Assembly (NCBI RefSeq): GCF_988243305.1
Contig: NZ_OZ547136.1
Length of the DNA stretch: 64,000 nucleotides
Strand: one strand, 5' to 3'
Shown here piece after piece: positions 12,301 through 38,183 of the stretch. The notes under the pieces are model-generated. The model had not been told where the DNA came from. It ran no database searches and saw only the letters and a list, made by a program, of their open reading frames with translations. Each line of letters starts with the position of its first letter. Position 1 is the first letter of the stretch. Position numbers and translations under genes: made by a program.

Positions 12301-13094
12301 ATGATGAATCACAGGCAAACGATGCTGTTAACCGCTACAAATTGCTGAAAAAAGATGCGCGTACCGTCGCCGCCCAGCAGGTAGCAAGGCTGGAATCCGC
12401 CATGTGCCTGCGCCGCCGCTGGTCGCCGGAAAACTTTCAGCTCTTCCTGGTTGAGCATCCGCTGGTTCGTCACTTAACCCGCCGTCTGATTTGGGGCGTT
12501 TATAGCACCGAAAACGAGCTACTGGCTTGCTTTCGCGTGGCGGAAGATAACAGCTACAGCACCGCAGACGATGATCTTTTCACCCTGCCGGAAGGCGATA
12601 TCTCTGTTGGCATTCCTCACGTTCTGGAAATATCACCCACGGATGCTGCCGCCTTTGGTCAACTTTTTGCCGACTACGAACTGCTACCGCCGTTCCGCCA
12701 GCTCGACCGTAACAGTTACGCCCTGACAGAAACCGAGCGCAATGCCAGCGAATTGACCCGCTGGGCAGGCAGAAAATGCCCGAGCGGTCGGGTAATGGGG
12801 CTGGCGAATAAAGGCTGGATGCGTGGTGAACCGCAGGACGGTGGCTGGATCGGCTGGATGATCAAACCGCTGGGCCGCTGGTCGTTAATCATGGAAATCG
12901 ATGAAGGTTTTGCGGTCGGCATGTCGCCAGCCGAACTCAGTGCCGAGCAACTCTTGAGTAAGCTGTGGCTATGGGAAGGCAAAGCGGAAAGCTATGGTTG
13001 GGGGAGTAATTCAACACAGGAAGCGCAGTTCTCCGTGCTCGATGCCATCACCGCCAGCGAACTCATTAACGATATTGAAGCCCTGTTTGAATAA
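9345..13094 (+). CDS. yehH: Large protein (1249 aa) with N-terminal WGR-like domain and a long C-terminal region; intact ortholog of the K-12 molR pseudogene
   Basis: Single uninterrupted 1249-aa ORF; N-terminus FWAVEQQGNELHINWGKVGTNGQ resembles a WGR domain; strong paralogy to the next gene across most of its length. Confidence 0.8.
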   Translation: MRHFIFQDEKSHKFWAVEQQGNELHINWGKVGTNGQSQVKSFADAAAAEKAELKLIAEKVKKGYVEELSSPSQPAIKIETIEVDTTGVAETTVVFDQSMVAEPAETPCPWLTDDSTIHLSEKKSQEALPSRRFPGDAVSEPQDSLLMNLGQDIHNLSGKITTYDFSACSANWQQNINEALANGPLSPAALAVQVVLVSRKFWGECPELMDEIVYVYGLEFAVDMFIAMQYISFDCTYHRTSIHITFQPLLNHAHCVTPFDVRLRKHLALAEETLWQRCVDKFITALPDIPPVQQPMVALMLPERPEIAEEVARRLLKQKNVQTVEWLKLVVQESSLLKALESYCAYDLFNDYYHGCIWNVTVLQEQGIAGIARFAPYAYADLCGSILEEINHPQALMLLIRVSGKTKRCHERMTKACAAFPHTALAALAELLAQKEENSWRIMLMTMLISQPALAEQVTPWLSTPAVAVLKSCQQQLTQPSNHASADMLPAVLVSPPWLSKKKKSVMPVLDLTPLPLESCCTLTETAEKEIHARHRWHAHQIDIGQKEDIQNYLTRLGFNRWNNGQYMKASDAVVELWQRGDYSALISEFKTFWHSYQREWQLYMLAALPIEKTAQAWNVLSKEPHVGVEFVMTHLQLAGLQGFIHSFSRYPQEALPVAQYFAAIELAPLIARAFNKLKTLRQDARTWLLKYPEHAITGLLPAALGKAGEAQDNARAALRMLIENDHQPLLQEIARRYNQPEVTDAVNAMLALDPLDNHPTKIPTLPAFYQPSIWTRPVLKANAQSLPDSALLRLGEMLRFPQEEALYPGLLQVKAACTADSLAEFTWDLFTAWLAAGAPSKESWAFTALGVLGNDDTARKLTPLIRAWPGESQHKRATVGLDILAAIGSDIALMQLNGIAQKLKFKALQERAKEKIADIAESRELTVAELEDRLAPDLGLDDNGSLLLDFGPRQFTVSFDETLKPFVRDVSGSRLKDLPKPNKSDDESQANDAVNRYKLLKKDARTVAAQQVARLESAMCLRRRWSPENFQLFLVEHPLVRHLTRRLIWGVYSTENELLACFRVAEDNSYSTADDDLFTLPEGDISVGIPHVLEISPTDAAAFGQLFADYELLPPFRQLDRNSYALTETERNASELTRWAGRKCPSGRVMGLANKGWMRGEPQDGGWIGWMIKPLGRWSLIMEIDEGFAVGMSPAELSAEQLLSKLWLWEGKAESYGWGSNSTQEAQFSVLDAITASELINDIEALFE

Positions 13095-13103
13095 GGAAAG
13101 AGC

Positions 13104-16100
13104 ATGGACAAGGAATTACCGTGGCTGGCGGATAACGCCCAAGTGGAACTGAAATATAAAAAAGGCAAAACGCCGCTCAGCCATCGCAGTTGGCCGGGCG
13201 AACCAGTGCCTGTTATCACTGAAAGCCTCATCCAGACACTGGGTGATGAATTGCTACAAAAAGCTGAGAAGAAAAAAAACATTGTCTGGCGTTATGAAAA
13301 TTTTTCACTGGAGTGGCAGTCGGCCATTACGCAGGCCATCAACTTGATCGGAGAACACAAACCCTCAGTTCCGGCCCGGACAATGGCGGCGCTAGCCTGT
13401 ATCGCGCAAAATGATAGCCAACAGTTGCTCGACGAAATCGTCCAACAAGAGGGACTGGAATATGCGACTGAGGTGGTGATTGCACGCCAGTTTATTGCAC
13501 GGTGTTATGAAAGTGATCCTCTGCTAGTGACATTGCAGTATCAGGACGAGGATTATGGCTATGGTTATCGCTCAGAAACCTATAACGAATTCGATCTCCG
13601 ACTGCGTAAGCATCTCTCTCTGGCAGAGGAAAGCAGCTGGCAGCGTTGCGCCGACAAACTCATTGCCGCACTGCCAGGAATAACCAAAGTTCGCCGCCCT
13701 TTTATTGCGCTGATCCTCCCGGAAAAACCAGAAATCGCCAATGAGTTGGTAGGCCTTGAATGCCCGCGGACTCATTTTCATTCTAAGGAGTGGTTAAAAG
13801 TTGTTGCTAATGACCCCAGAGCGGTGAAAAAACTCGAACGCTACTGGAGCCAGGATATATTTAGCGATCGGGAAGCCAGCTACATGTCGCATGAAAACCA
13901 CTTCGGCTACGCGGCCTGCGCTGCCCTTTTGCGCGAACAAGGACTGGCAGCCGTTCCACGCCTGATAATGTATGCCCATAAAGAAGATTGCGGCAGTCTG
14001 CTGGTACAAATTAACCATCCGCAGGTCATCCGCACCCTGCTGTTAGTTGCTGATAAAAACAAACCCAGCCTGCAACGTGTAGCTAAATACAGTAAAAATT
14101 TCCCCCATGCGACGCTTGCCGCACTGGCAGAGCTTCTGGCGTTAAAAGAACCGCCTGCACGCCCTGGTTATCCAATCATCGAAGACAAAAAGCTGCCTGC
14201 ACAGCAAAAAGCACGTGATGAATACTGGCGTACGCTGTTACAAACGCTGATGGCATCGCAGCCACAACTGGCAGAAGAGGTGATGCCGTGGTTAAGTACT
14301 CAAGCCCAGGCAGTGCTGAATAGTTATTTATCGGCACCGCCCAAAACGGTTATTGATAGCACCGATAACAGCCAAATGCCTGAAATCCTCGTTTCACCAC
14401 CGTGGCGTAGTAAGAAAAAAATGACAGTTCCACGTCTTGATTTGGCACCGTTCGAATTAACGCCGCAAGTTTACTGGCAACCAGGCGAACGAGAGAGGCT
14501 TGCCGCCACTGAGTCTGCCCGTTATTTCAGCACGGAATCTCTTGCGGAACGCATGGAACAAAAAAGTGGACGAGTTGTATTACAGGAGCTGGGTTTTGGA
14601 GATGATGTATGGCTGTTTTTGAATTATATACTCCCCGGAAAACTGGATGCTGCATGCAATTCACTCATTGTTCAGTGGCATTACTACCCAGGGCGGGTTG
14701 AAGAGATCATGAATGGCTGGAGCTCCCCGGAAGCTCAATTAGCAGAACAGGCGCTTCGCAACGGTCACGTAGAAGTGTTAATTAACATATGGGAAAATGA
14801 CAGCTACTCACGCTATCGTCGGGAAAAGAGTATCTGGAACCTGTATTTATTGGCGCAGTTGCCGCGTGAGATGGCTTTGACTTTCTGGCTACGTATCAAT
14901 GAGAAAAAGCATCTGTCTGCGGGTGAGGACTATTTTCTCAGTATCTTCGGATTGGATGCTCTACCAGGTCTGCTGTTGGCTTTTTCACATCGTCCAAAAG
15001 AAACATTTCCATTAATTTTAAATTTCGGCGCAACCGAACTGGCCCTGCCCGTTGCCCGCGTCTGGCGACGTTTCGCGGCGCAGCGTGATCTGGCTCGCCA
15101 GTGGATTTTACATTGGCCGGAACATACAGCTACTGCACTTATCCCTCTTGTCTTCACCAAATCCAGCGATAATAGCGAAGCTGCATTACTTGCCCTGCGT
15201 TTACTTTACGAACAGGGACATGGCGAGTTACTGCAAACCGTGGCAAACCGCTGGCAGCGTACAGATGTATGGCCTGCCCTGGAGCATTTACTTAAACAGA
15301 GTCCAATAGAGATTTACCCGACACGCATTCCAAAAGCCCCTGATTTCTGGCAGCCGGCAATGTGGTCCAGGCCGCGCCTTATCACGAATAATCAGCCTGT
15401 TACTGATGACGCTCTGGAAATTATCGGCGAAATGCTGCGCTTTACCCAAGGCGGACGTTTTTATTGCGGACTGGAACAGCTGAAAACGTTTTGCCAGCCG
15501 CAAACGTTGGCAGCCTTTGCCTGGGATCTTTTCACCGCGTGGCAACAAGCTGGTGCTCCCGCAAAAGACAACTGGGCATTTCTGGCGTTAAGTCTCTTTG
15601 GCGACGAAAGCACGGCACGGGATCTGACGACACTGATTCTCGCCTGGCCACAAGAGGGCAAATCTGCCCGTGCCGTCAGTGGTCTGAATATACTTACTCA
15701 GATGAATAATGATATGGCACTGATACAGCTGCATCATATATCGCAACGGGCGAAATCCCGCCCCTTACGTGATAACGCGGCGGAATTTCTTCATGTGGTC
15801 GCAGAAAATCGCGGTCTAAGCCAGGAACAGTTAGCGGACAGATTAGTCCCAACGCTGGGTCTTGATGATCCGCAGGCGTTGATTTTTGATTTTGGTCCAC
15901 GGCAATTTACCGTTCGCTTCGATGAAAACCTTAACCCGGTTATCTTTGATCAGCAAAACGTTCGCCAGAAAAGCGTTCCCCGGTTGCGCGCCGATGACGA
16001 TCAACTGAAAGCACCCGAGGCACTGGCCCGACTAAAAGGGCTAAAAAAAGATGCTACTCAGGTGAGCAAAAACCTGCTCCCGCGTCTTGAAACTGCCCTG

Positions 16101-16736
16101 CGCACCACCCGACGCTGGTCGCTGGCAGATTTTCATTCTCTGTTTGTTAATCATCCCTTTACCCGCCTGGTTACTCAGCGATTGATATGGGGTGTTTATC
16201 CGGCAAATGAACCGCGTTGTTTACTCAACGCCTTTCGTGTGGCCGCTGAGGGGGAGTTCTGCAATGAGCAAGATGAGCCAATTGACCTGCCTGCCGATGC
16301 TCTGATTGGCATTGCCCACCCGTTAGAAATGACAGCAGAAATGCGCAGTGAATTTGCACAGCTTTTTGCCGATTACGAAATTATGTCGCCTTTTCGCCAA
16401 TTGTCGCGCCGCACGGTGCTGCTCACGCCTGACGAGTCAGCCAGTAATAGTTTGAATCGCTGGGAAGGTAAATCTGCTACCGTTGGGCAACTTATGGGAT
16501 TGCGATACAAAGGCTGGGAGTCAGGCTATGAGAACGCATTTGTCTATGACCTGGGCGAGTACCGGCTGGTCCTTAAGTTTTCATCCGGTTTTAACCACTA
16601 CAATGTTGATAGCAAAGCGCTAATGAGCTTCCGTTCTCTTCATGTATACCGTGAGAATAAATCCGTCACTTTTGCCGAACTTGATGTGTTTGATTTGAGT
16701 GAGGCGTTAAGCGCACCCGACGTCATTTTCCATTAA
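13104..16736 (+). CDS. yehI: Large protein (1210 aa), paralog of YehH lacking the WGR-like N-terminus
   Basis: 1210-aa ORF; shares with yehH blocks such as FD(V/L)RLRKHL(A/S)LAEE..WQRC.DK, GEMLRF, AF.WDLFTAW..AGAP.K..WAF.AL, LDFGPRQFTV.FDE.L.P; AAGGAAAG RBS before ATG 13104. Confidence 0.85.
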   Translation: MDKELPWLADNAQVELKYKKGKTPLSHRSWPGEPVPVITESLIQTLGDELLQKAEKKKNIVWRYENFSLEWQSAITQAINLIGEHKPSVPARTMAALACIAQNDSQQLLDEIVQQEGLEYATEVVIARQFIARCYESDPLLVTLQYQDEDYGYGYRSETYNEFDLRLRKHLSLAEESSWQRCADKLIAALPGITKVRRPFIALILPEKPEIANELVGLECPRTHFHSKEWLKVVANDPRAVKKLERYWSQDIFSDREASYMSHENHFGYAACAALLREQGLAAVPRLIMYAHKEDCGSLLVQINHPQVIRTLLLVADKNKPSLQRVAKYSKNFPHATLAALAELLALKEPPARPGYPIIEDKKLPAQQKARDEYWRTLLQTLMASQPQLAEEVMPWLSTQAQAVLNSYLSAPPKTVIDSTDNSQMPEILVSPPWRSKKKMTVPRLDLAPFELTPQVYWQPGERERLAATESARYFSTESLAERMEQKSGRVVLQELGFGDDVWLFLNYILPGKLDAACNSLIVQWHYYPGRVEEIMNGWSSPEAQLAEQALRNGHVEVLINIWENDSYSRYRREKSIWNLYLLAQLPREMALTFWLRINEKKHLSAGEDYFLSIFGLDALPGLLLAFSHRPKETFPLILNFGATELALPVARVWRRFAAQRDLARQWILHWPEHTATALIPLVFTKSSDNSEAALLALRLLYEQGHGELLQTVANRWQRTDVWPALEHLLKQSPIEIYPTRIPKAPDFWQPAMWSRPRLITNNQPVTDDALEIIGEMLRFTQGGRFYCGLEQLKTFCQPQTLAAFAWDLFTAWQQAGAPAKDNWAFLALSLFGDESTARDLTTLILAWPQEGKSARAVSGLNILTQMNNDMALIQLHHISQRAKSRPLRDNAAEFLHVVAENRGLSQEQLADRLVPTLGLDDPQALIFDFGPRQFTVRFDENLNPVIFDQQNVRQKSVPRLRADDDQLKAPEALARLKGLKKDATQVSKNLLPRLETALRTTRRWSLADFHSLFVNHPFTRLVTQRLIWGVYPANEPRCLLNAFRVAAEGEFCNEQDEPIDLPADALIGIAHPLEMTAEMRSEFAQLFADYEIMSPFRQLSRRTVLLTPDESASNSLNRWEGKSATVGQLMGLRYKGWESGYENAFVYDLGEYRLVLKFSSGFNHYNVDSKALMSFRSLHVYRENKSVTFAELDVFDLSEALSAPDVIFH

Positions 16737-16795: not shown

Positions 16796-17116
16796 ATGAT
16801 CGTGCAAAAAGAGCTGGTCGCTATTTACGATTATGAGGTCCCTGTACCTGAAGATCCGTTTTCCTTCAGACTTGAGGTCCATAAACGCTCTGAATTATTT
16901 ACAGGTTCCGTCTACCGGTTGGAGCGATTCCGGCCACATCCAACATTTCATCAACGTGATCGAGAGGATGTCGACCCGCTAATAAATGATGCATTGATTT
17001 ATATAAGAGATGAATTTATTGATGAGCGAAAATTACGAGGCGAATCACCTGAACCTGTAATAGTAATTTTTAATTGTGAACTACAGAATATATTCAACCA
17101 ACAAATAGAAAAATAG
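16796..17116 (+). CDS. yehK: Small protein of unknown function (about 105 aa)
   Basis: 106-codon ORF with ATG at 16796; conserved position between yehI and yehL. Confidence 0.7.
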   Translation: MIVQKELVAIYDYEVPVPEDPFSFRLEVHKRSELFTGSVYRLERFRPHPTFHQRDREDVDPLINDALIYIRDEFIDERKLRGESPEPVIVIFNCELQNIFNQQIEK

Positions 17117-17169: not shown

Positions 17170-17259
17170 TTACTTCAACAAATCAATCAACCGTAACAGA
17201 GCCACTAATAGCTCCAGTACGGCAATGAGCACGGTTAACTTTTGTGTCAGCGTGTCCAT
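17170..17259 (-). CDS. zorO: ZorO-like type I toxin, small hydrophobic peptide (29 aa): MDTLTQKLTVLIAVLELLVALLRLIDLLK
   Basis: 30-codon ORF on the minus strand (ATG 17257-17259, TAA 17170-17172) with an AAGGAG RBS 6 nt upstream. The single amphipathic/hydrophobic helix ending in LLK resembles the ShoB/TisB/DinQ/ZorO peptide class as I recall it. Absent from the ORF track because it is under 60 aa. Confidence 0.7.
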   Translation of the reverse strand: MDTLTQKLTVLIAVLELLVALLRLIDLLK

Positions 17260-17440: not shown

Positions 17441-17491
17441 ATTATAAATCTCATTATCTTAATTGCAACGGGGTCCACCGATGGTTATAAT
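17441..17491. promoter_or_regulatory. Back-to-back sigma70-like promoters for zorO (minus) and the OrzO-like sRNA (plus) sharing a palindromic -35
   Basis: TTGCAA at 17463-17468 is its own reverse complement; 17 bp downstream on plus is TATAAT (17486-17491); 16 bp away on minus is TATAAT (complement of 17441-17446). Predicted zorO TSS near 17433 gives a 5' UTR of about 174 nt. Confidence 0.55.
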
Positions 17492-17497
17492 TCGTTC

Positions 17498-17581
17498 GTT
17501 GGAACACGATGTTGCACAGGCTGCGGTGTTGGGCCTGAAAATAGTAAATAAAAGAACCTGCCTCACCAGCAGGTTTTTTTA
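17498..17581 (+). ncRNA. orzO: OrzO-like antitoxin sRNA (about 85 nt) predicted to pair with the zorO 5' UTR
   Basis: Consensus promoter immediately upstream; strong intrinsic terminator ACCTGC-CTCACCA-GCAGGT + T8 at 17556-17581. The sRNA segment 17501-17517 (GGAACACGATGTTGCAC) repeats plus-strand 17335-17351 (GGACCACGATGTTGCAC) inside the zorO leader, so the two transcripts are complementary over 13 contiguous (16 of 17) nt. Confidence 0.6.
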
Positions 17582-17691: not shown

Positions 17692-18780
17692 ATGTCACCG
17701 CAGAATAATCATCTGCAGCGTCCGCCTGCCGCTGTGTTATACGCCGATGAACTGGCAAAATTAAAACAAAATGATAACGCACCTTGCCCGCCCGGTTGGC
17801 AGTTAAGTTTGCCTGCGGCCCGTGCTTTTATCCTTGGCGATAGCGCGCAAAATATTAGCCGTAAAGTGGTGATTAGTCCCTCCGCTGTCGAACGTATGTT
17901 AGTCACTCTTGCCACCGGGCGCGGTTTGATGTTGGTGGGGGAACCTGGCACCGCAAAATCTCTCCTGTCTGAATTACTGGCAACCGCTATTAGCGGCGAT
18001 GCCGGGTTAACCATCCAGGGCGGCGCATCTACTACTGAAGATCAAATCAAGTACGGCTGGAACTACGCCCTGCTTATCAACCATGGTCCGTCAACGGAAG
18101 CACTGGTCCCTGCCCCGCTTTACCAGGGAATGCGCGACGGCAAAATTGTCCGTTTTGAAGAGATAACGCGTACACCGCTGGAAGTACAAGACTGTCTGTT
18201 AGGTATGCTTTCTGACAGGGTAATGACGGTGCCAGAACTCACTGGTGAAGCCAGTCAGCTCTATGCGCGGGAAGGCTTTAATATTATTGCCACTGCCAAT
18301 ACCCGCGATCGCGGCGTCAATGAAATGAGTGCTGCGCTAAAGCGTCGCTTCGATTTTGAAACTGTCTTTCCGATTATGGATTTCGCTCAGGAGCTGGAGC
18401 TTGTCGCCAGTGCTTCGGCGCGTTTGCTGGCCCATAGCGGTATTCCGCATAAAGTGCCTGACGCGGTACTGGAGTTACTGGTCCGCACCTTCCGCGATCT
18501 GCGTGCCAACGGCGAAAAGAAAACGTCAATGGATACACTAACAGCGATTATGTCCACCGCTGAAGCCGTGAACGTGGCCCACGCTGTGGGCGTCCGCGCC
18601 TGGTTTTTAGCGAATCGCGCAGGTGAGCCAGCCGATCTGGTGGACTGTATTGCCGGAACCATCGTCAAAGATAACGAAGAAGATCGCGCTCGTCTGCGCC
18701 GTTACTTCGAACAGCGTGTCGCCACACATAAAGAAGCTCACTGGCAGGCTTATTATCAAGCCCGCCACCGCCTGCCGTGA
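17692..18780 (+). CDS. yehL: MoxR-family AAA+ ATPase (362 aa)
   Basis: Walker A GEPGTAKS, Walker B-like VRFEEI, sensor-1 IIATANTR and LKRRF arginine region visible in translation; AGGGA RBS before ATG 17692. Confidence 0.85.
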   Translation: MSPQNNHLQRPPAAVLYADELAKLKQNDNAPCPPGWQLSLPAARAFILGDSAQNISRKVVISPSAVERMLVTLATGRGLMLVGEPGTAKSLLSELLATAISGDAGLTIQGGASTTEDQIKYGWNYALLINHGPSTEALVPAPLYQGMRDGKIVRFEEITRTPLEVQDCLLGMLSDRVMTVPELTGEASQLYAREGFNIIATANTRDRGVNEMSAALKRRFDFETVFPIMDFAQELELVASASARLLAHSGIPHKVPDAVLELLVRTFRDLRANGEKKTSMDTLTAIMSTAEAVNVAHAVGVRAWFLANRAGEPADLVDCIAGTIVKDNEEDRARLRRYFEQRVATHKEAHWQAYYQARHRLP

Positions 18781-18790
18781 GGAAAGATGC

Positions 18791-21070
18791 ATGAGCGAGC
18801 CGTTAATTGTCGGCATCCGGCATCATAGTCCAGCCTGCGCCCGGCTGGTGAAATCGTTAATCGAAAGCCAGCGGCCACGATACGTGTTGATTGAAGGCCC
18901 GGCTGATTTTAATGACCGGGTAGACGAACTGTTTTTAGCCCACCAGCTTCCGGTAGCTATTTACAGTTATTGCCAGTATCAGGACGGTGCAGCCCCCGGG
19001 CGTGGTGCCTGGACGCCATTTGCTGAATTTTCGCCGGAGTGGCAGGCGCTACAAGCCGCTCGTCGTATTCAGGCACAAACTTACTTCATCGATTTGCCTT
19101 GCTGGGCGCAGAGTGAAGAAGAGGACGATTCGCCTGATACGCAAGAGGAAAGCCAGACCTTGCTGCTGCGTGCCACCCGCATGGATAACAGCGACACCCT
19201 GTGGGATTACTTGTTCGAAGATGAAAGCCAGCAAACTGCATTACCCTCTGCACTGGCGCACTATTTTGCCCAACTGCGGGGCGACGCCCCCGGAGATGCT
19301 CTCAATCGTCAGCGCGAAGCCTTTATGGCCCGCTGGATTGGATGGGCGATGCAGCAAAATAATGGCGACGTGTTAGTTGTCTGCGGTGGCTGGCACGCTC
19401 CGGCACTGGCAAAAATGTGGCGCGAATGTCCGCAGGTAATTAACACGCCAGAATTGCCGTCGCTGGCAGATGCCGTTACAGGTTGTTATCTCACCCCCTA
19501 CAGTGAAAAGCGCCTTGATGTGCTGGCAGGATACCTTTCAGGAATGCCTGCCCCGGTCTGGCAAAACTGGTGCTGGCAGTGGGGCTTACAGCAGGCGGGA
19601 GAACAACTGCTAAAAACGGTTCTCACCCGTTTGCGCCAGCACAAGTTGCCTGCTTCGACCGCGGATATGGCTGCCGCTCATCTGCATGCGATGGCACTGG
19701 CACAGTTGCGCGGTCATACACTACCGTTACGCACTGACTGGCTGGATGCCATAGCAGGATCGCTGATTAAAGAAGCCCTGAATGCGCCGTTGCCGTGGAG
19801 CTATCGCGGCGTTATTCATCCCGATACCGATCCGATTCTGCTAACGTTGATAGACACATTAGCGGGTGACGGATTCGGTAAACTTGCCCCTTCTACGCCA
19901 CAACCGCCTCTGCCAAAAGATGTCACCTGCGAACTGGAACGTACCGCAATCTCTCTTCCGGCGGAGCTTACCTTAAATCGCTTTAACCCCGATGGACTGG
20001 CGCAAAGTCAGGTGTTACATCGGCTGGTAATACTGGAGATCCCAGGGGTTGTGCGCCAGCAGGGAAGTACACTGACACTTGCAGGCAACGGTGAAGAACG
20101 CTGGAAATTAACCCGCCCGCTTAGCCAACATGCGGCATTGATTGAGGCCGCCTGCTTTGGTGCAACACTCCAGGAAGCCGCACGCCATAAATTAGAAGCC
20201 GATATGCTGGACGCGGGTGGAATCGGCTGCATCACCACATGTCTTAGCCAGGCGGCGTTAGCGGGTCTGGCGTCCTTCAGTCAACAATTACTGGAGCAAC
20301 TTACATTATTAATCGCCCAGGAAAATCAGTTTGCCGAAATGGGCCAGGCGCTGGAAGTGCTATACGCCTTATGGCGGCTGGATGAAATTAGCGGTATGCA
20401 AGGCGCGCAGATATTACAGACGACGTTATGCGCGGCTATCGATCGCACACTCTGGCTGTGTGAATCCAACGGCAGACCGGAGGAAAAGGAGTTTCACGCT
20501 CACCTGCATAGCTGGCAGGCGCTTTGCCATATCCTGCGCGATCTACATAGCGGCGTTAATTTACCCGGCGTTTCGCTTTCTGCGGCGGTAGCCTTACTGG
20601 AGCGCCGCAGTCAGGCGATTCATGCCCCGGCGCTGGATCGCGGCGCGGCTCTTGGCGCACTAATGCGTCTGGAACATCCCAACGCCAGTGCCGAAGCGGC
20701 GCTGACAATGCTGGCGCAATTATCCCCGGCACAATCCGGCGAAGCGCTGCACGGTTTGCTGGCGCTGGCCCGCCATCAACTGGCCTGTCAGCCGGCATTT
20801 ATCGCCGGTTTCAGTAGTCATTTAAATCAACTGAGTGACGACGATTTTATTAACGCCCTGCCCGATTTACGCGCGGCGATGGCCTGGCTACCACCACGAG
20901 AACGCGGGACGCTGGCGCATCAGGTGCTTGAGCATTACCAGCTCGCACAGCTTCCCGTTTCAGCGCTGCAAATGCCGTTGCATTGTCCACCACAAGCCAT
21001 TGCACATCATCAACAACTCGAACAGCAGGCACTGGCATCGCTGCAACACTGGGGAGTTTTCCATGTCTGA
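18791..21070 (+). CDS. yehM: Large uncharacterized protein (759 aa), partner of the MoxR/vWA pair
   Basis: ATG at 18791 with GAGGAAAG RBS directly after the yehL stop; no motif recognisable by eye; 3' end overlaps the yehP start (ATGTCTGA). Confidence 0.8.
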   Translation: MSEPLIVGIRHHSPACARLVKSLIESQRPRYVLIEGPADFNDRVDELFLAHQLPVAIYSYCQYQDGAAPGRGAWTPFAEFSPEWQALQAARRIQAQTYFIDLPCWAQSEEEDDSPDTQEESQTLLLRATRMDNSDTLWDYLFEDESQQTALPSALAHYFAQLRGDAPGDALNRQREAFMARWIGWAMQQNNGDVLVVCGGWHAPALAKMWRECPQVINTPELPSLADAVTGCYLTPYSEKRLDVLAGYLSGMPAPVWQNWCWQWGLQQAGEQLLKTVLTRLRQHKLPASTADMAAAHLHAMALAQLRGHTLPLRTDWLDAIAGSLIKEALNAPLPWSYRGVIHPDTDPILLTLIDTLAGDGFGKLAPSTPQPPLPKDVTCELERTAISLPAELTLNRFNPDGLAQSQVLHRLVILEIPGVVRQQGSTLTLAGNGEERWKLTRPLSQHAALIEAACFGATLQEAARHKLEADMLDAGGIGCITTCLSQAALAGLASFSQQLLEQLTLLIAQENQFAEMGQALEVLYALWRLDEISGMQGAQILQTTLCAAIDRTLWLCESNGRPEEKEFHAHLHSWQALCHILRDLHSGVNLPGVSLSAAVALLERRSQAIHAPALDRGAALGALMRLEHPNASAEAALTMLAQLSPAQSGEALHGLLALARHQLACQPAFIAGFSSHLNQLSDDDFINALPDLRAAMAWLPPRERGTLAHQVLEHYQLAQLPVSALQMPLHCPPQAIAHHQQLEQQALASLQHWGVFHV

Positions 21071-22199
21071 ACTGAACGATCTTCTGACCACCCGTGAGCT
21101 ACAACGCTGGCGATTAATTCTTGGCGAAGCGGCAGAAACGACCCTTTGTGGGCTGGATGACAACGCCCGGCAGATAGACCACGCGCTGGAGTGGCTGTAT
21201 GGGCGCGATCCTGAACGGCTCCAGCGTGGTGAACGCTCTGGTGGATTAGGTGGCTCAAATCTCACCACTCCTGAGTGGATCAACAGTATTCACACGCTGT
21301 TTCCGCAACAGGTGATTGAGCGGCTGGAAAGCGATGCCGTACTGCGCTACGGCATTGAAGATGTGGTGACGAATCTCGACGTGCTGGAACGTATGCAGCC
21401 TTCTGAAAGCCTGCTACGCGCCGTTTTGCACACCAAACATCTGATGAATCCCGAAGTACTGGCTGCCGCCCGCCGGATAGTGCGCCAGGTTGTGGAAGAA
21501 ATTATGGCACAACTGGCAAAGGAGGTTCGTCAGGCTTTTTCTGGTGTCCGCGATCGCCGCCGTCGCTCATTTATTCCACTGGCGCGTAATTTCGATTTCA
21601 AAAATACGCTGCGCGCCAACCTGCAACACTGGCACCCGCAACACGGCAAGTTGTATATCGAATCCCCCCGCTTTAACAGCCGTATTAAGCGCCACAGTGA
21701 ACAATGGCAACTGGTCTTACTGGTTGATCAAAGCGGATCGATGGTTGACTCGGTGATCCACTCAGCGGTGATGGCGGCCTGTTTATGGCAGTTACCCGGT
21801 ATTCGTACCCATCTGGTGGCGTTTGACACCAGCGTGGTTGATCTCACGGCAGACGTTGCCGATCCGGTAGAGTTATTAATGAAAGTGCAATTAGGCGGCG
21901 GAACCAATATCGCCAGTGCCATGGAATATGGTCGGCAACTTATTGAACAACCAGCGAAAAGCGTCATTATCCTCGTGAGCGATTTTTACGAAGGGGGTTC
22001 ATCATCATTACTGACGCATCAGGTGAAAAAGTGTGTCCAGAGCGGCATCAAAGTACTGGGACTGGCGGCGCTCGATAGCACCGCAACACCTTGCTATGAC
22101 CACGATACGGCCCAGGCGCTGGTTAATGTCGGCGCACAAATAGCCGCCATGACACCGGGCGAGCTGGCATCATGGCTTGCGGAGAATCTTCAGTCATGA
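21063..22199 (+). CDS. yehP: von Willebrand factor A (vWA) domain protein with MIDAS motif (378 aa)
   Basis: MIDAS DxSxS in LLVDQSGSMVDS plus downstream GGGTNIASAM and VSDFYEGG; GGGGAG RBS; start overlaps the yehM stop. Confidence 0.85.
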   Translation: MSELNDLLTTRELQRWRLILGEAAETTLCGLDDNARQIDHALEWLYGRDPERLQRGERSGGLGGSNLTTPEWINSIHTLFPQQVIERLESDAVLRYGIEDVVTNLDVLERMQPSESLLRAVLHTKHLMNPEVLAAARRIVRQVVEEIMAQLAKEVRQAFSGVRDRRRRSFIPLARNFDFKNTLRANLQHWHPQHGKLYIESPRFNSRIKRHSEQWQLVLLVDQSGSMVDSVIHSAVMAACLWQLPGIRTHLVAFDTSVVDLTADVADPVELLMKVQLGGGTNIASAMEYGRQLIEQPAKSVIILVSDFYEGGSSSLLTHQVKKCVQSGIKVLGLAALDSTATPCYDHDTAQALVNVGAQIAAMTPGELASWLAENLQS

Positions 22200-24196
22200 A
22201 TTCACTACGTCCGGAATTATTAGAACTGACACCGCAGGCCCTGACGGCGTTAAGCAATGCCGGTTTTGTTAAGCGCAGTCTTAAGGAACTGGAAAATGGC
22301 AACGTCCCGGAGATCAGCCATGAGAACGGCGCTTTAATCGCCACCTTCAGTGACGGTGTCCGTACCCAGCTGGCGAACGGTCAGGCATTGAAAGAGGCTC
22401 AATGCAGCTGCGGGGCCAGCGGCATGTGCCGTCATCGCGTGATGCTGGTGTTAAGTTATCAACGACTTTGCGCCACCACCCAGCCTACGGAAAAAGAAGA
22501 AGAGTGGGATCCGGCAATCTGGCTGGAAGAACTGGCTACCCTGCCCGATACCACCCGCAAACGCGCACAGGCGCTGGTCGCTAAAGGCATCACCATTGAG
22601 TTGTTCTGTACGCCGGGCGAAATTCCCTCTGCCCGCTTACCGATGAGCGATGTGCGTTTTTATTCCCGTAGCAGCATTCGTTTCGCCCGTTGTGATTGTA
22701 TTGAAGGCACACTTTGCGAACATGTCGTACTGGCAGTACAGGCCTTTGTCCAGGCAAAAGCGCAGCAAGCGGAATTGACTCATTTAATCTGGCAGATGCG
22801 CAGCGAACACGTCACATCATCTGACGATCCGTTTGCCAGCGAAGAAGGCCAAACGTGTCGTCAATATATTCAACAATTAAGTCAGGCATTATGGCTGGGC
22901 GGCATCAGCCAGCCGCTTATTCATTACGAGGCTGCTTTCAGCCGCGCGCAGCAAGCGGCGGAACGCTGCAACTGGCGCTGGGTGAGTGAATCGCTACGGC
23001 AACTGCGCGCCAGCGTTGATGCCTTCCACGCCCGCGCCAGCCACTATCATGCCGGAGAATGCTTACGTCAGCTTGCGGCATTAAACAATCGATTAAATTG
23101 TGCACAAGAGATGGCCCGGCGCGACAGTGTTGGTGAAGTTCCTCCCATGCCGTGGCGCACGGTCGTTGGCGCTGGCATTGCCGGAGAAGCAAAGCTTGAT
23201 CATCTGCGGCTGGTGTCTTTAGGTATGCGTTGCTGGCAGGATATTGAGCAGTATGGTTTACGCATCTGGTTTACCGATCCCGACACCGGCAGTATTTTGC
23301 ATCTTTCACGTAGTTGGCCGAAAAGCGAACAGGAAAACTCACCGGCAGCGACGCGTCGGCTGTTTAGTTTTCAGGCTGGCGCACTGGCTGGTGGGCAAAT
23401 TGTTTCACAAGCAGCAAAACGCAGTGCCGATGGCGAGCTGCTGTTAGCTACCCGCAACCACTTGAGTAGTGTTGTTCCACTGTCGCCAGACGCCTGGCAA
23501 ATGTTGAGTGCGCCGTTGCGCCAGCCGGGCATTGTGGCTTTGCGTGAATATTTACGCCAGCATCCCCCCGCCTGCATACGACCACTCAACCAGGTCGATA
23601 ACTTATTTATTCTGCCGGTAGCGGAGTGTATTTCGCTCGGTTGGGATAGCAGCCGCCAGACACTGGATGCGCAGGTCATTAGCGGCGAAGGGGAAGATAA
23701 TGTGCTGACGTTATCCCTTCCGGCATCTGCCTGTTCTCCTTTTGCCGTTGAACGCATGGCGGCGCTTTTGCAACAAACAGACGACCCCGTGAGTCTGGTT
23801 TCTGGCTTTGTCAGCTTTGTAGAGGGGCAATTGACACTGGAACCACGGGTGATGATGACAAAAACTCGCGCCTGGGCGCTGGACGCAGAAACTGCGCCTG
23901 TGGCACCGCTACCTTCTGCCAGCGTTTTGCCTGTGCCGTCTACCGCTCATCAGTTGCTGATGCGCTGCCAGGCGTTACTTATTCAACTGCTCCATAACGG
24001 CTGGCGCTATCAGGAACAGAGTGCTATTGGTCAGGCAGAGTTGCTGGCGAATGACCTCACCGCGGTCGGTTTTTATCGGCTGGCACATGTGTTGGCACAA
24101 TTTCGTAATACAGAAAGCGAGGCACGGGTAGAAGCAATGAATAACGGTGTTTTGCTTTGCGAACAATTATTCCCCATGCTTCAGCAACAAGGATGA
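22196..24196 (+). CDS. yehQ: Protein with two SWIM-type zinc-finger motifs (about 666 aa from this start)
   Basis: CxC...CxH motifs CSCGASGMCRHRV and CDCIEGTLCEHVV; ATG 22196 overlaps the yehP TGA (ATGA); GGAGAA RBS. Confidence 0.8.
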   Translation: MNSLRPELLELTPQALTALSNAGFVKRSLKELENGNVPEISHENGALIATFSDGVRTQLANGQALKEAQCSCGASGMCRHRVMLVLSYQRLCATTQPTEKEEEWDPAIWLEELATLPDTTRKRAQALVAKGITIELFCTPGEIPSARLPMSDVRFYSRSSIRFARCDCIEGTLCEHVVLAVQAFVQAKAQQAELTHLIWQMRSEHVTSSDDPFASEEGQTCRQYIQQLSQALWLGGISQPLIHYEAAFSRAQQAAERCNWRWVSESLRQLRASVDAFHARASHYHAGECLRQLAALNNRLNCAQEMARRDSVGEVPPMPWRTVVGAGIAGEAKLDHLRLVSLGMRCWQDIEQYGLRIWFTDPDTGSILHLSRSWPKSEQENSPAATRRLFSFQAGALAGGQIVSQAAKRSADGELLLATRNHLSSVVPLSPDAWQMLSAPLRQPGIVALREYLRQHPPACIRPLNQVDNLFILPVAECISLGWDSSRQTLDAQVISGEGEDNVLTLSLPASACSPFAVERMAALLQQTDDPVSLVSGFVSFVEGQLTLEPRVMMTKTRAWALDAETAPVAPLPSASVLPVPSTAHQLLMRCQALLIQLLHNGWRYQEQSAIGQAELLANDLTAVGFYRLAHVLAQFRNTESEARVEAMNNGVLLCEQLFPMLQQQG

Positions 24197-24320
24197 AATA
24201 GTGCTTTTTACTAAGAGTTCTACTCCAGTTCCGGACTGCTCACGCCACGGTATTAGGCATATCCTATATAGCCCCTGGTGAGAGTCACCAGTTTCTTGAT
24301 TAAATAAAATGGAGTTTTAC

Positions 24321-38010: not shown

Positions 38011-38183
38011 GATGAGCATTCAGATAGTGGTTCACGCGCACGGGTTGCGCACCGCCGGAGTAAGGATTTACTGAGGCTAGCGACGCCATCATAACGAGCA
38101 AAAAGTGCGATCGTCAAAGGAGAATCGTGAGGAAATGCTGCATTGCTGACATTTACGCCAGCAATGCAACACAAAAGAACTTT

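What the first reader, a model, noticed from the sequence alone, without database searches (positions are those of the whole stretch)
17692..24196. yehLMPQ: translationally coupled MoxR-ATPase / large unknown / vWA / tandem-SWIM operon, a candidate NTP-dependent conflict or quality-control system
Four co-directional genes with minimal or overlapping junctions (10-bp gap, ATGTCTGA overlap, ATGA overlap) encode a MoxR-type AAA+ ATPase (GEPGTAKS), a 759-aa protein with no recognisable motif, a vWA protein with an intact MIDAS motif (DQSGS), and a protein with two SWIM-type CxC..CxH zinc fingers. MoxR+vWA pairs are known chaperone-like modules, and MoxR/vWA plus a large variable partner have been proposed as conflict systems. 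To my knowledge this operon has no assigned function. It sits directly between two giant paralogs and a type I toxin-antitoxin locus.
Basis: partly seen in the sequence, partly recalled or inferred. Interest (0 to 1): 0.75.

Follow-up and report, generated by a model that had tools for sequence, protein, structure and literature searches.

The report
Conserved five-part MoxR–vWA hydrolase system
The E. coli yehLMPQ operon is real, and with the giant DUF4132 genes just upstream it forms a gene cluster conserved in at least five bacterial phyla that combines an ATP-driven motor, an adaptor, a predicted hydrolase and predicted DNA-binding proteins, with no function yet shown by experiment.

Summary
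Four co-directional genes lie at 17692-24196, joined by a 10-bp gap, an ATGTCTGA overlap and an ATGA overlap. They encode a MoxR/AAA_5 ATPase (YehL), DUF5682 (YehM), a CoxE-type vWA protein with an intact MIDAS motif (YehP), and a SWIM protein (YehQ).

- **The unit is larger than reported.** Across Gamma-, Beta-, Alpha- and Deltaproteobacteria, Actinobacteria and Bacillota, L-M-P-Q travel with one to three giant DUF4132 proteins, most carrying an N-terminal WGR domain. They stay together when gene order is permuted and when plasmid-borne. The "two giant paralogs" (yehH, yehI) therefore belong to the system. A second form carries DUF5691 in place of DUF4132.
- **YehM is not motif-less.** Its model has a TIKI/TraB/ChaN/erythromycin-esterase fold with invariant GxxH…E…GxxH residues, followed by HEAT-like repeats.
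- **YehQ looks DNA-binding.** Its model has SWIM fingers followed by tandem OB folds resembling RPA70, Teb1 and LEF-3.

Best reading, inferred not shown: a DNA-structure-sensing, MoxR/vWA-gated hydrolase complex. A role in genetic conflict is possible but unsupported. There are no PADLOC hits, the cluster is core in E. coli (5362 of 5426 genomes), and YehL and YehP are highly conserved. It is a new variant of a known kind.

The parts
9320..9335 (+). Imperfect LexA box CTGGATAAAATTACAG, ending 10 bp before the yehH/molR start codon
   Evidence: molR is listed among LexA-regulated genes with a known SOS box in review PMC6590174. One-mismatch matches occur at chance frequency in the window (20 observed, 18 expected), so the sequence alone proves nothing.
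9345..13094 (+). yehH/molR-like giant protein (1249 aa): N-terminal WGR, a variable middle, and a conserved C-terminal half that includes DUF4132. It is intact in this window.
   Evidence: Pfam WGR E=5e-18 and DUF4132 E=5e-51. Homologues lie next to L-M-P-Q in nearly all loci. Conservation profile.
13104..16736 (+). yehI, a paralogous giant DUF4132 protein (1210 aa) without WGR
   Evidence: Pfam DUF4132 E=7e-47. 37% identical to YehH over 1178 aa.
16796..17116 (+). yehK (106 aa), an Escherichia-specific insertion between the DUF4132 genes and yehL. Probably not a core part.
   Evidence: phmmer finds it only in the window and in E. coli locus L001. Klebsiella L081 lacks it.
17692..18780 (+). 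yehL, a MoxR-type AAA+ ATPase (YehL subfamily). Walker A GEPGTAKS at nt 17938-17961.
   Evidence: Pfam AAA_5 E=2.6e-34. Walker A/B, sensor and Arg-finger regions are at least 90% conserved in 80 species. The YehL subfamily is named in PMC3893208.
18791..21070 (+). yehM (DUF5682): the N-terminal ~240 aa form a TIKI/TraB/ChaN/Ere-type alpha/beta domain, followed by a HEAT-like helical domain. Motifs: G8-x-R10-H11 at nt 18812-18823 (H12 follows at 18824-18826), E35 at nt 18893-18895, G199-G-x-H202 at nt 19385-19396.
21063..22199 (+). yehP, a CoxE-type vWA protein. MIDAS residues D222-x-S224-x-S226 (nt 21726-21740), T281 and D307.
   Evidence: Pfam VWA_CoxE E=5e-71. MIDAS residues are at least 90% conserved in 80 species. 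DUF5682-vWA fusion proteins P0290, P0352 and P0380 exist.
22196..24196 (+). yehQ: two SWIM zinc fingers (nt 22403-22435 and 22691-22723), a helical bundle, two OB-like beta-barrels (about aa 331-428 and 470-561) and a C-terminal helical bundle
24275..24291 (+). Terminator-like stem-loop plus T-run after yehQ, the likely end of the operon
   Evidence: Consensus scan only.

Best explanation
yehLMPQ is the core of a conserved five-component cytoplasmic machine. I propose it couples recognition of a DNA structure to an ATP-gated hydrolase.

**Shown:**
- L (MoxR AAA+), M (DUF5682), P (vWA/MIDAS) and Q (SWIM) are inherited together with one to three giant DUF4132 proteins in at least five phyla.
- M models as a TIKI/TraB-type hydrolase fold that keeps the family's His/Glu signature, followed by a HEAT-like scaffold.
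- Q models as SWIM fingers plus RPA70-like tandem OB folds.
- Most of the giants begin with a WGR domain, the domain that contacts DNA breaks in PARPs.

**Inferred mechanism:**
1. YehQ and the WGR-DUF4132 giants bind ssDNA, nicks or DNA ends. The variable N-terminal half of the giants gives specificity.
2. The conserved C-terminal half of the giants docks to the machine.
3. The YehP MIDAS site grips an acidic residue of a partner.
4. The YehL hexamer uses ATP to remodel that complex.
5. This switches on or positions the YehM hydrolase, which cleaves a peptide or ester bond in a DNA-associated target.

The biological role is most likely a response to damaged or foreign DNA. In E. coli the first gene is reported as SOS (LexA) controlled.
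For: **Linkage.** D-L-M-P-Q occurs co-directionally in nearly all of 80 species loci. The same five genes occur as L-M-P-Q-D in Burkholderia. They occur as L-M-D-P-Q on a conjugative Sinorhizobium plasmid and as D-L-M-P-Q on a Bacillus mycoides plasmid. No other gene family is conserved nearby. M-P fusion proteins exist.

**Active motor and adaptor.** Walker A/B, the Arg finger and the MIDAS residues are at least 90% conserved.

**DNA link.**
- Nearly all of the top 24 Foldseek hits to YehQ are tandem-OB DNA binders, with probability up to 0.99.
- WGR is detected at E=5e-18.
- molR is listed in the LexA regulon (PMC6590174), and a matching box lies at 9320-9335.
- A DUF4132 gene and a WGR gene are strongly induced in the Deinococcus radiation/desiccation response (PMC8533742).

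**Selection.** dN/dS is 0.06-0.16 within E. coli. None of the seven proteins (YehH, YehI, YehK, YehL, YehM, YehP, YehQ) has a clear transmembrane segment (YehI peaks at a borderline 1.61).
Against: - There is no experimental evidence for any step.
- Some TIKI-fold proteins are non-catalytic: ChaN binds haem and PMT lacks the motif. The fold alone does not prove hydrolysis.
- The LexA box is imperfect, and such matches occur at chance frequency.
- No LexA or Cheo boxes are conserved upstream in 34 gamma/beta-proteobacterial and 33 actinobacterial loci.
- The Deinococcus genes are not shown to sit next to an L-M-P-Q cluster.
- The second form has DUF5691 in place of WGR-DUF4132.
- K-12 carries a disrupted molR, and a successful ST131 sublineage has a transposon in the DUF4132 region (PMC9334617). 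The giants are therefore dispensable in some settings.
Confidence: 0.35

Rival explanations
1. An anti-phage or anti-plasmid conflict system. It would follow the logic of MoxR-vWA ternary systems: a sensor (WGR-DUF4132 giants and/or YehQ) detects invader DNA, MoxR/vWA sets a threshold, and the YehM hydrolase acts as a toxic or abortive effector.
For: - It shares the design of MoxR + vWA + peptidase-like effector + sensor (PMC12839542; PMC7159879).
- M-P fusions mimic 'vWA fused to peptidase'.
- The giants are tandemly multiplied and have a variable N-terminal half.
- Distribution is patchy, with copies on plasmids including a conjugative one.
- E. coli proteins are about as close to betaproteobacterial as to Serratia proteins.
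- yehL and yehM are upregulated in hns/stpA mutants, next to an H-NS-bound intergenic region (PMC3686432).
- The cluster is abundant in Actinobacteria and Myxococcales.
Against: - No PADLOC hits for any of the seven proteins.
- The partner domains are not mentioned in Kaur et al. 2020.
- The cluster is present at one chromosomal site in 5362 of 5426 E. coli genomes.
- YehL is 64% and YehP 58% identical across phyla.
- Flanking genes are shared within genera such as Variovorax, Lentzea and Glycomyces.
- No defence or mobile genes appear in seven annotated contexts. The one exception is a xerS recombinase gene about 5 kb downstream in Bacillus.
- There is essentially no presence in phage genomes.
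Confidence: 0.25
2. A dedicated assembly or remodelling chaperone whose clients are the giant DUF4132 proteins themselves. MoxR/vWA would fold, assemble or dismantle a large DUF4132 complex and YehM would process it, with no DNA involved.
For: - Characterised MoxR-vWA pairs act as maturation factors for specific complexes (PMC3893208).
- The only conserved partners besides M and Q are the giants.
- The C-terminal half of the giants is strongly conserved, as expected for a docking surface.
Against: - It does not explain the WGR, SWIM and OB domains.
- The second form lacks DUF4132 but keeps L, M, P and a SWIM protein.
- Strains with broken giants retain intact LMPQ under purifying selection.
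Confidence: 0.15
3. A CoxD/CoxE-like metal or cofactor insertion system, with a historical link to molybdate through 'molR'. YehM would act as a ChaN-like haem or metal-binding carrier rather than a hydrolase.
For: - YehP matches VWA_CoxE at E=5e-71.
- CoxD-CoxE and MoxR systems activate metal-cluster insertion (PMC7159879).
- molR was named for a molybdate-utilisation phenotype (cited in PMC8533742).
Against: - No client metalloenzyme gene is conserved next to the cluster in 80 loci.
- The invariant His/Glu constellation fits the catalytic TIKI members.
- DNA-binding-type domains are unexplained.
- Molybdate genes did not respond together with the Deinococcus homologues.
- K-12 has a disrupted molR (PMC3950696).
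Confidence: 0.08

Closest known systems
CoxD-CoxE, and other MoxR-vWA maturation pairs (RavA-ViaA, CbbQ-CbbO, NorQ-NorD)
   Same: A MoxR-type AAA+ ATPase is encoded next to a vWA protein with a MIDAS site. YehP belongs to the CoxE-type vWA family.
   Different: No client enzyme gene is conserved nearby. There are three extra obligatory partners: a TIKI-fold DUF5682 protein, a SWIM-OB protein, and giant WGR-DUF4132 proteins. YehL is its own MoxR subfamily.
MoxR-vWA 'ternary' conflict systems (VMAP, iSTAND and beta-propeller types; Kaur et al. 2020)
   Same: The logic of MoxR + vWA + peptidase-like module + a large variable third component. DUF5682-vWA fusions exist in some lineages.
   Different: None of the defining third components or effector-associated domains is present. 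There is only a weak partial bpMoxR hit, E=0.002. SWIM, WGR and DUF4132 are not mentioned in that paper. No PADLOC hit. The cluster is core in E. coli.
TIKI/TraB/PrgY/erythromycin esterase/RRSP/ChaN superfamily
   Same: The YehM N-terminal domain has this fold. It has GxxH at the end of strand 1, Glu at the end of strand 2 and a second GxxH after a later strand, all invariant.
   Different: There is no detectable sequence similarity to any solved member. The domain is fused to a ~500-aa HEAT-like region and is always partnered with MoxR and vWA. The substrate is unknown.
Rea1/Midasin (eukaryotic AAA_5 ring plus MIDAS domain that strips factors from pre-ribosomes)
   Same: A dynein-related AAA_5 ATPase works with a MIDAS domain. 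The comparison comes from my own knowledge, as an analogy for how ATP-driven pulling through a MIDAS contact could work.
   Different: Here the ATPase and MIDAS are separate small proteins. The context is bacterial, and a link to ribosomes was not tested.
RPA70 DBD-A/B, Teb1 and LEF-3 tandem-OB ssDNA binders
   Same: The beta-rich middle of the YehQ model aligns to these over 220-265 columns with Foldseek probability up to 0.99.
   Different: E-values are only about 3e-3 and sequence identity is 8-11%. YehQ adds SWIM fingers and two helical bundles. DNA binding is untested.

Membership tests
MoxR AAA+ ATPases (YehL subfamily) | AAA_5/MoxR-type AAA+ core with intact Walker A, Walker B, sensor and Arg finger | tested here: met
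   Pfam AAA_5 E=2.6e-34. The motifs are at least 90% conserved in 80 species. The subfamily is named after this protein (PMC3893208).
MoxR-vWA chaperone-like pairs | An adjacent vWA protein with a complete MIDAS motif (DxSxS…T…D) | tested here: met
   VWA_CoxE E=5e-71. D222, S224, S226, T281 and D307 are conserved.
MoxR-vWA maturation systems (CoxDE, CbbQO, NorQD, RavA-ViaA) | A conserved client enzyme gene in the neighbourhood | tested here: not met
   Clustering of all flanking ORFs in 80 loci found no family shared across phyla other than D, L, M, P and Q.
MoxR-vWA ternary conflict systems (Kaur et al. 2020) | A third component of VMAP, iSTAND or beta-propeller type, and effector or EAD domains on the vWA protein | tested here: not met
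   Pfam scans of L, M, P, Q and the giants show none. There is only a partial bpMoxR hit, E=0.002. The paper does not mention SWIM, WGR or DUF4132.
Catalogued anti-phage defence systems | A match to a PADLOC-DB v2 model | tested here: not met
   Zero families at E<=0.01 for all seven proteins.
Defence-island type accessory genes | Variable presence within a species, and neighbourhoods rich in defence or mobile genes | tested here: not met
   The cluster is in 5362 of 5426 E. coli genomes at one locus. Seven annotated contexts show metabolic and regulatory neighbours. Only a small sample of contexts was inspected.
TIKI/TraB/ChaN/erythromycin-esterase superfamily (YehM N-terminal domain) | An alpha/beta fold with a parallel beta-sheet core | tested here: met
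TIKI/TraB/ChaN/erythromycin-esterase superfamily (YehM N-terminal domain) | A catalytic His/Glu signature (GxxH…E…GxxH; 2His/2Glu) | tested here: met
   H11, E35, E83 and H202, with G8 and G199, are invariant in 30 and in 113 divergent homologues. The signature is described in PMC6254334. Spatial clustering in the model was not checked because no coordinates were available.
TIKI/TraB/ChaN/erythromycin-esterase superfamily (YehM N-terminal domain) | Hydrolytic (peptidase or esterase) activity | not testable with these tools
   Needs biochemistry.
SWIM zinc finger | CxCxnCxH | tested here: met
   C70, C72, C78 and H80 are invariant in 25 sequences. The second finger (166-176) is present in Proteobacteria and degenerate in Actinobacteria.
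RPA-like tandem OB-fold DNA binders (YehQ middle region) | Two OB barrels superposable on DBD-A/B-type modules | tested here: inconclusive
WGR domain proteins | A match to the WGR profile | tested here: met
   YehH 5-67, E=5e-18. Found on at least one giant in most loci.
SOS (LexA) regulon | A LexA box upstream, conserved in relatives | tested here: inconclusive
   An imperfect box lies at 9320-9335, and molR is listed as LexA-regulated. No conserved LexA or Cheo boxes were found in 67 other loci.

The most novel reading that the evidence does not exclude
The cluster is a previously unrecognised bacterial genome-surveillance machine. DNA-lesion or DNA-end sensors (WGR-DUF4132 giants and SWIM/tandem-OB YehQ) recruit a MoxR AAA+/MIDAS motor. 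The motor extracts proteins trapped on DNA and hands them to a TIKI-type protease (YehM). Such proteins could include DNA-protein crosslinks, stalled complexes or invader-DNA end-binding proteins. Functionally this would be a counterpart of the eukaryotic Cdc48-Wss1/SPRTN pathway, built from unrelated parts and conserved in at least five phyla.
Probability: 0.15. Interest if true: 0.9.

Novelty: new variant of a known kind. Interest (0 to 1): 0.62.

Why it matters
- These genes are among the larger remaining blocks of E. coli core genes with no function. The five main genes (yehH, yehI, yehL, yehM, yehP, yehQ minus the small yehK) span about 13 kb.
- The same cluster is present in at least 573 species representatives, and the DUF5682 family comprises about 2,270 clusters at 50% identity.
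- The work turns 'MoxR + vWA + unknowns' into a concrete, testable model: a five-part unit, a candidate catalytic triad in YehM, and candidate DNA-binding modules in YehQ and the giants.
- This makes the open question of what the YehL subfamily of MoxR ATPases does directly approachable.
- If the DNA-linked hydrolase idea holds, it would add a new type of DNA-damage or foreign-DNA response to bacteria.

Tried and rejected
1. **PADLOC and NCBIfam.** PADLOC gave nothing. NCBIfam gave only weak generic AAA and vWA hits.
2. **PHROGs.** Near-identical matches to singleton-like families. tblastn against 50,697 phage records found only one weak partial hit. I treat the PHROG families as host DNA captured in prophage calls, not as evidence of phage origin.
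3. **Sequence searches of the PDB.** Single sequences and family profiles of YehM, YehQ and YehI gave no meaningful hits.
4. **Conserved SOS regulation.** No CTGT-N8-ACAG boxes lie upstream of the cluster in 34 gamma/beta-proteobacterial loci. The recurrent CTG-N10-CAG at +41 lies inside the WGR coding sequence. No Cheo-type boxes were found upstream in 33 actinobacterial loci. A conserved LexA link is therefore rejected.
5. **Additional conserved neighbours.** None found.
6. **Profile search with the conserved DUF4132 C-terminal half, to find other domain architectures.** It returned mostly partial proteins with DUF4132 only, which was uninformative.
8. **Literature.** 'yehL' hits in phage papers turned out to be an author's surname.
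9. **yehK and zorO/orzO as system parts.** Rejected because they occur only in Escherichia.

Full report
**Observation.** The window is the E. coli metG-yeh region. There is a 10-bp gap with a Shine-Dalgarno-like AGGAAAG, then an ATGTCTGA overlap and an ATGA overlap.
- Pfam confirms AAA_5 for YehL (E=2.6e-34), DUF5682 for YehM (E=4e-97), VWA_CoxE for YehP (E=5e-71) and two SWIM fingers for YehQ.
- Walker A GEPGTAKS, MIDAS DQSGS and both CxC..CxH motifs are where stated.
- The same 6.5 kb is found in 5362 of 5426 complete E. coli genomes, almost always once and on the chromosome.
- Between two E. coli strains, yehM, yehP and yehQ show dN/dS of 0.06-0.16, so they are under purifying selection.

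**The unit is bigger than four genes.**
- In Serratia fonticola a WGR+DUF4132 giant is followed directly by AAA_5, DUF5682, VWA_CoxE and SWIM genes.
- I scanned one genome per GTDB species with a YehM family alignment. I kept 80 loci with 10-kb flanks from Gamma-, Beta- and Deltaproteobacteria (Myxococcales) and Actinobacteria.
- phmmer searches with the E. coli proteins against six-frame ORFs of these loci gave the order D(1-3 copies)-L-M-P-Q in nearly all of them. Most exceptions look like ORF-calling artefacts in high-GC DNA.
- The five families stay together when order changes. Burkholderia has L-M-P-Q-D. A conjugative Sinorhizobium plasmid has L-M-D-P-Q. A Bacillus mycoides plasmid and a Streptomyces linear plasmid have D-L-M-P-Q.
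- Clustering of all remaining flanking ORFs found no other family shared across phyla.
- The 'two giant paralogs' are therefore components. They are yehH/molR-like (9345-13094, intact here, WGR+DUF4132) and yehI (13104-16736, DUF4132), 37% identical to each other.
- yehK and the zorO/orzO type I toxin-antitoxin pair are Escherichia-specific insertions between the D genes and yehL.
- A second form, in Deinococcus taeanensis and Rhizobium, has an upstream gene (annotated as SWIM in Deinococcus, hypothetical in Rhizobium), then DUF5691, AAA, DUF5682 and vWA. L, M and P are thus the shared core in every form seen. Q accompanies them in form 1 and in Deinococcus, and the fifth part varies.

**What the parts look like.**
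- **YehL and YehP are remarkably conserved.** Median identity between E. coli and Actinobacteria is 64% for YehL and 58% for YehP. It is 38% for YehM, 28% for YehQ and 33-38% for the giants. ATPase motifs and MIDAS residues are at least 90% conserved in 80 species.
- **YehM.** An AlphaFold2 model built from 37 homologues (pLDDT 83.9, pTM 0.77) has an alpha/beta domain at about residues 1-240, followed by helical repeats.
  - The only alpha/beta part of the model is the N-terminal domain, so I infer that the TIKI-fold hits map there.
  - The family's signature is present and invariant: G8-x-R10-H11 at the end of strand 1, E35 at the end of strand 2, and G199-G-x-H202 after a later strand. H51, E83, D101, E143 and R175-E176 are also invariant. 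This holds in 30 distant homologues and in 113 cluster representatives.
  - Active TIKI enzymes use a 2His/2Glu set (PMC6254334).
  - YehM is therefore most likely an active hydrolase, not a motif-less protein.
- **YehQ.** A model built from 25 homologues (pLDDT 89, pTM 0.84) shows SWIM finger(s), a helical bundle, two beta-barrels (about 331-428 and 470-561) and a C-terminal bundle.
  - The Foldseek list is headed almost entirely by tandem-OB DNA binders. These are LEF-3, RPA70 DBD-A/B, Teb1 AB, the MNDA HIN domain, CST, POT1 and archaeal RPA. Probabilities reach 0.99 but E-values are modest, 3e-3 and upward.
  - The first SWIM finger is invariant. The second is lost in Actinobacteria.
- **The giants.** They have an N-terminal WGR domain on at least one copy in most loci. 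A poorly conserved stretch at about residues 100-650 follows. The C-terminal half is strongly conserved and includes DUF4132.
- None of the seven proteins has a clear transmembrane segment (YehI peaks at a borderline 1.61).

**How it most likely works.** The anatomy above is shown. The following is inferred.
- MoxR-vWA pairs are known as ATP-driven remodelling modules in which the MIDAS site holds the client (PMC3893208; PMC7159879).
- Here the pair is always joined to a predicted hydrolase, and in some lineages the hydrolase is fused to the vWA protein.
- It is also always joined to proteins with DNA-binding-type domains: WGR, SWIM and tandem OB.
- I therefore propose that YehQ and the giants recognise a DNA structure, and that YehL/YehP remodel the assembly with ATP. 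This would gate or position YehM, which would cleave a peptide or ester bond in a DNA-associated target.
- A DNA-damage context is suggested by three points. molR is listed among LexA-regulated genes (PMC6590174). A matching imperfect box lies at 9320-9335. A DUF4132 gene and a WGR gene are induced in the Deinococcus radiation/desiccation response (PMC8533742).
- Against this, I found no conserved LexA-type boxes in 67 other loci, and one-mismatch boxes occur at chance level in the window.

**The conflict-system reading.**
- It keeps some support: the design logic, the multiplied and variable giants, the patchy phyletic pattern, and the plasmid copies.
- It lacks direct support. PADLOC is silent. 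The defining third components of the published MoxR-vWA ternary systems are absent. The cluster is core in E. coli. Flanks are stable within genera. Seven annotated contexts show ordinary metabolic and regulatory neighbours.
- A CoxDE-like cofactor-insertion role is unlikely, because no client enzyme is conserved nearby.

**Comparison and novelty.**
- The MoxR-vWA core is a known kind, and YehL is the name-giving member of a recognised but uncharacterised MoxR subfamily.
- Four things appear undescribed in the literature I could search:
  1. the obligatory five-part composition;
  2. the TIKI-type fold and catalytic signature of DUF5682;
  3. the tandem-OB architecture of YehQ;
  4. the alternation between DUF4132 and DUF5691.
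- I rate it a new variant of a known kind. The anatomy is high confidence. The mechanism is about 0.35.

Noticed in passing
window 17170-17259 (-) and 17505-17580 (+): A zorO-like 29-aa toxin ORF (MDTLTQKLTVLIAVLELLVALLRLIDLLK) and an OrzO-P antitoxin RNA (Rfam 101 bits), with divergent promoter-like sites at 17441-17491. This type I TA pair is inserted between yehK and yehL.
   Followed up: partly
window 38015-38095 (-): A Peptidase-S11 RNA motif (Rfam RF03039, 72.8 bits) next to pbpG.
   Followed up: no
window 21921-21936: [quoted passage not shown] Here it reads ATG GAA TAT GGT CGG C, so the Shine-Dalgarno-like GGAG stimulator is lost while the shift-prone codons are kept.
   Followed up: partly
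window 17692-24196 compared with L001: Divergence within the operon is mosaic. Relative to the best-matching complete genome, yehL and yehK are 100% identical, but yehP is 96.9% and yehQ 96.5% identical (dS about 0.11). This suggests recombination breakpoints inside the operon. YehQ also exists in several length classes in E. coli: 623/624, 666 and 671/672 aa.
   Followed up: partly
window 9345-13094: yehH/molR is an intact 1249-aa ORF here. It is disrupted in K-12 (PMC3950696). yehI is frameshifted in the closest complete genome. A successful ST131 sublineage carries a blaCTX-M-15 transposon in this DUF4132 region (PMC9334617).
   Followed up: partly
PHROG families 30700, 33984, 31592, 29006, 20839, 36602 and 36295: These phage-protein families match the yeh proteins at near identity. 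tblastn of YehM against 50,697 phage records finds only one weak partial hit. The families are probably host DNA captured in prophage predictions.
   Followed up: partly
L083 (Deinococcus taeanensis plasmid) 4759-12805; L085 (Rhizobium sp. Kim5 plasmid) 4518-11451: A variant cluster: an upstream gene (annotated SWIM in Deinococcus, hypothetical in Rhizobium), then DUF5691, AAA, DUF5682 and vWA, with DUF5691 in place of DUF4132. Deinococcus also has a small extra ORF between the AAA and DUF5682 genes.
   Followed up: no
proteins P0290, P0352, P0380, P0342, P0346: Some cluster representatives are DUF5682-vWA fusions. P0342 carries a DUF5682 N-terminus followed by about five repeats of a YehQ N-terminal (SWIM-region) segment. 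P0346 appears to join DUF5682 to a YehQ-like C-terminus. I did not check whether these are gene-calling artefacts.
   Followed up: no
window 1298-3379 (-): The longest yehB (fimbrial usher) ORF here is 693 aa, against an annotated 2481-bp gene in the closest genome. The usher may be truncated or frameshifted in this strain.
   Followed up: no
window 18001-24000: yehLMPQ has 55% G+C, against 47-50% in the immediate flanks. This is compatible with acquisition from a donor richer in G+C.
   Followed up: no
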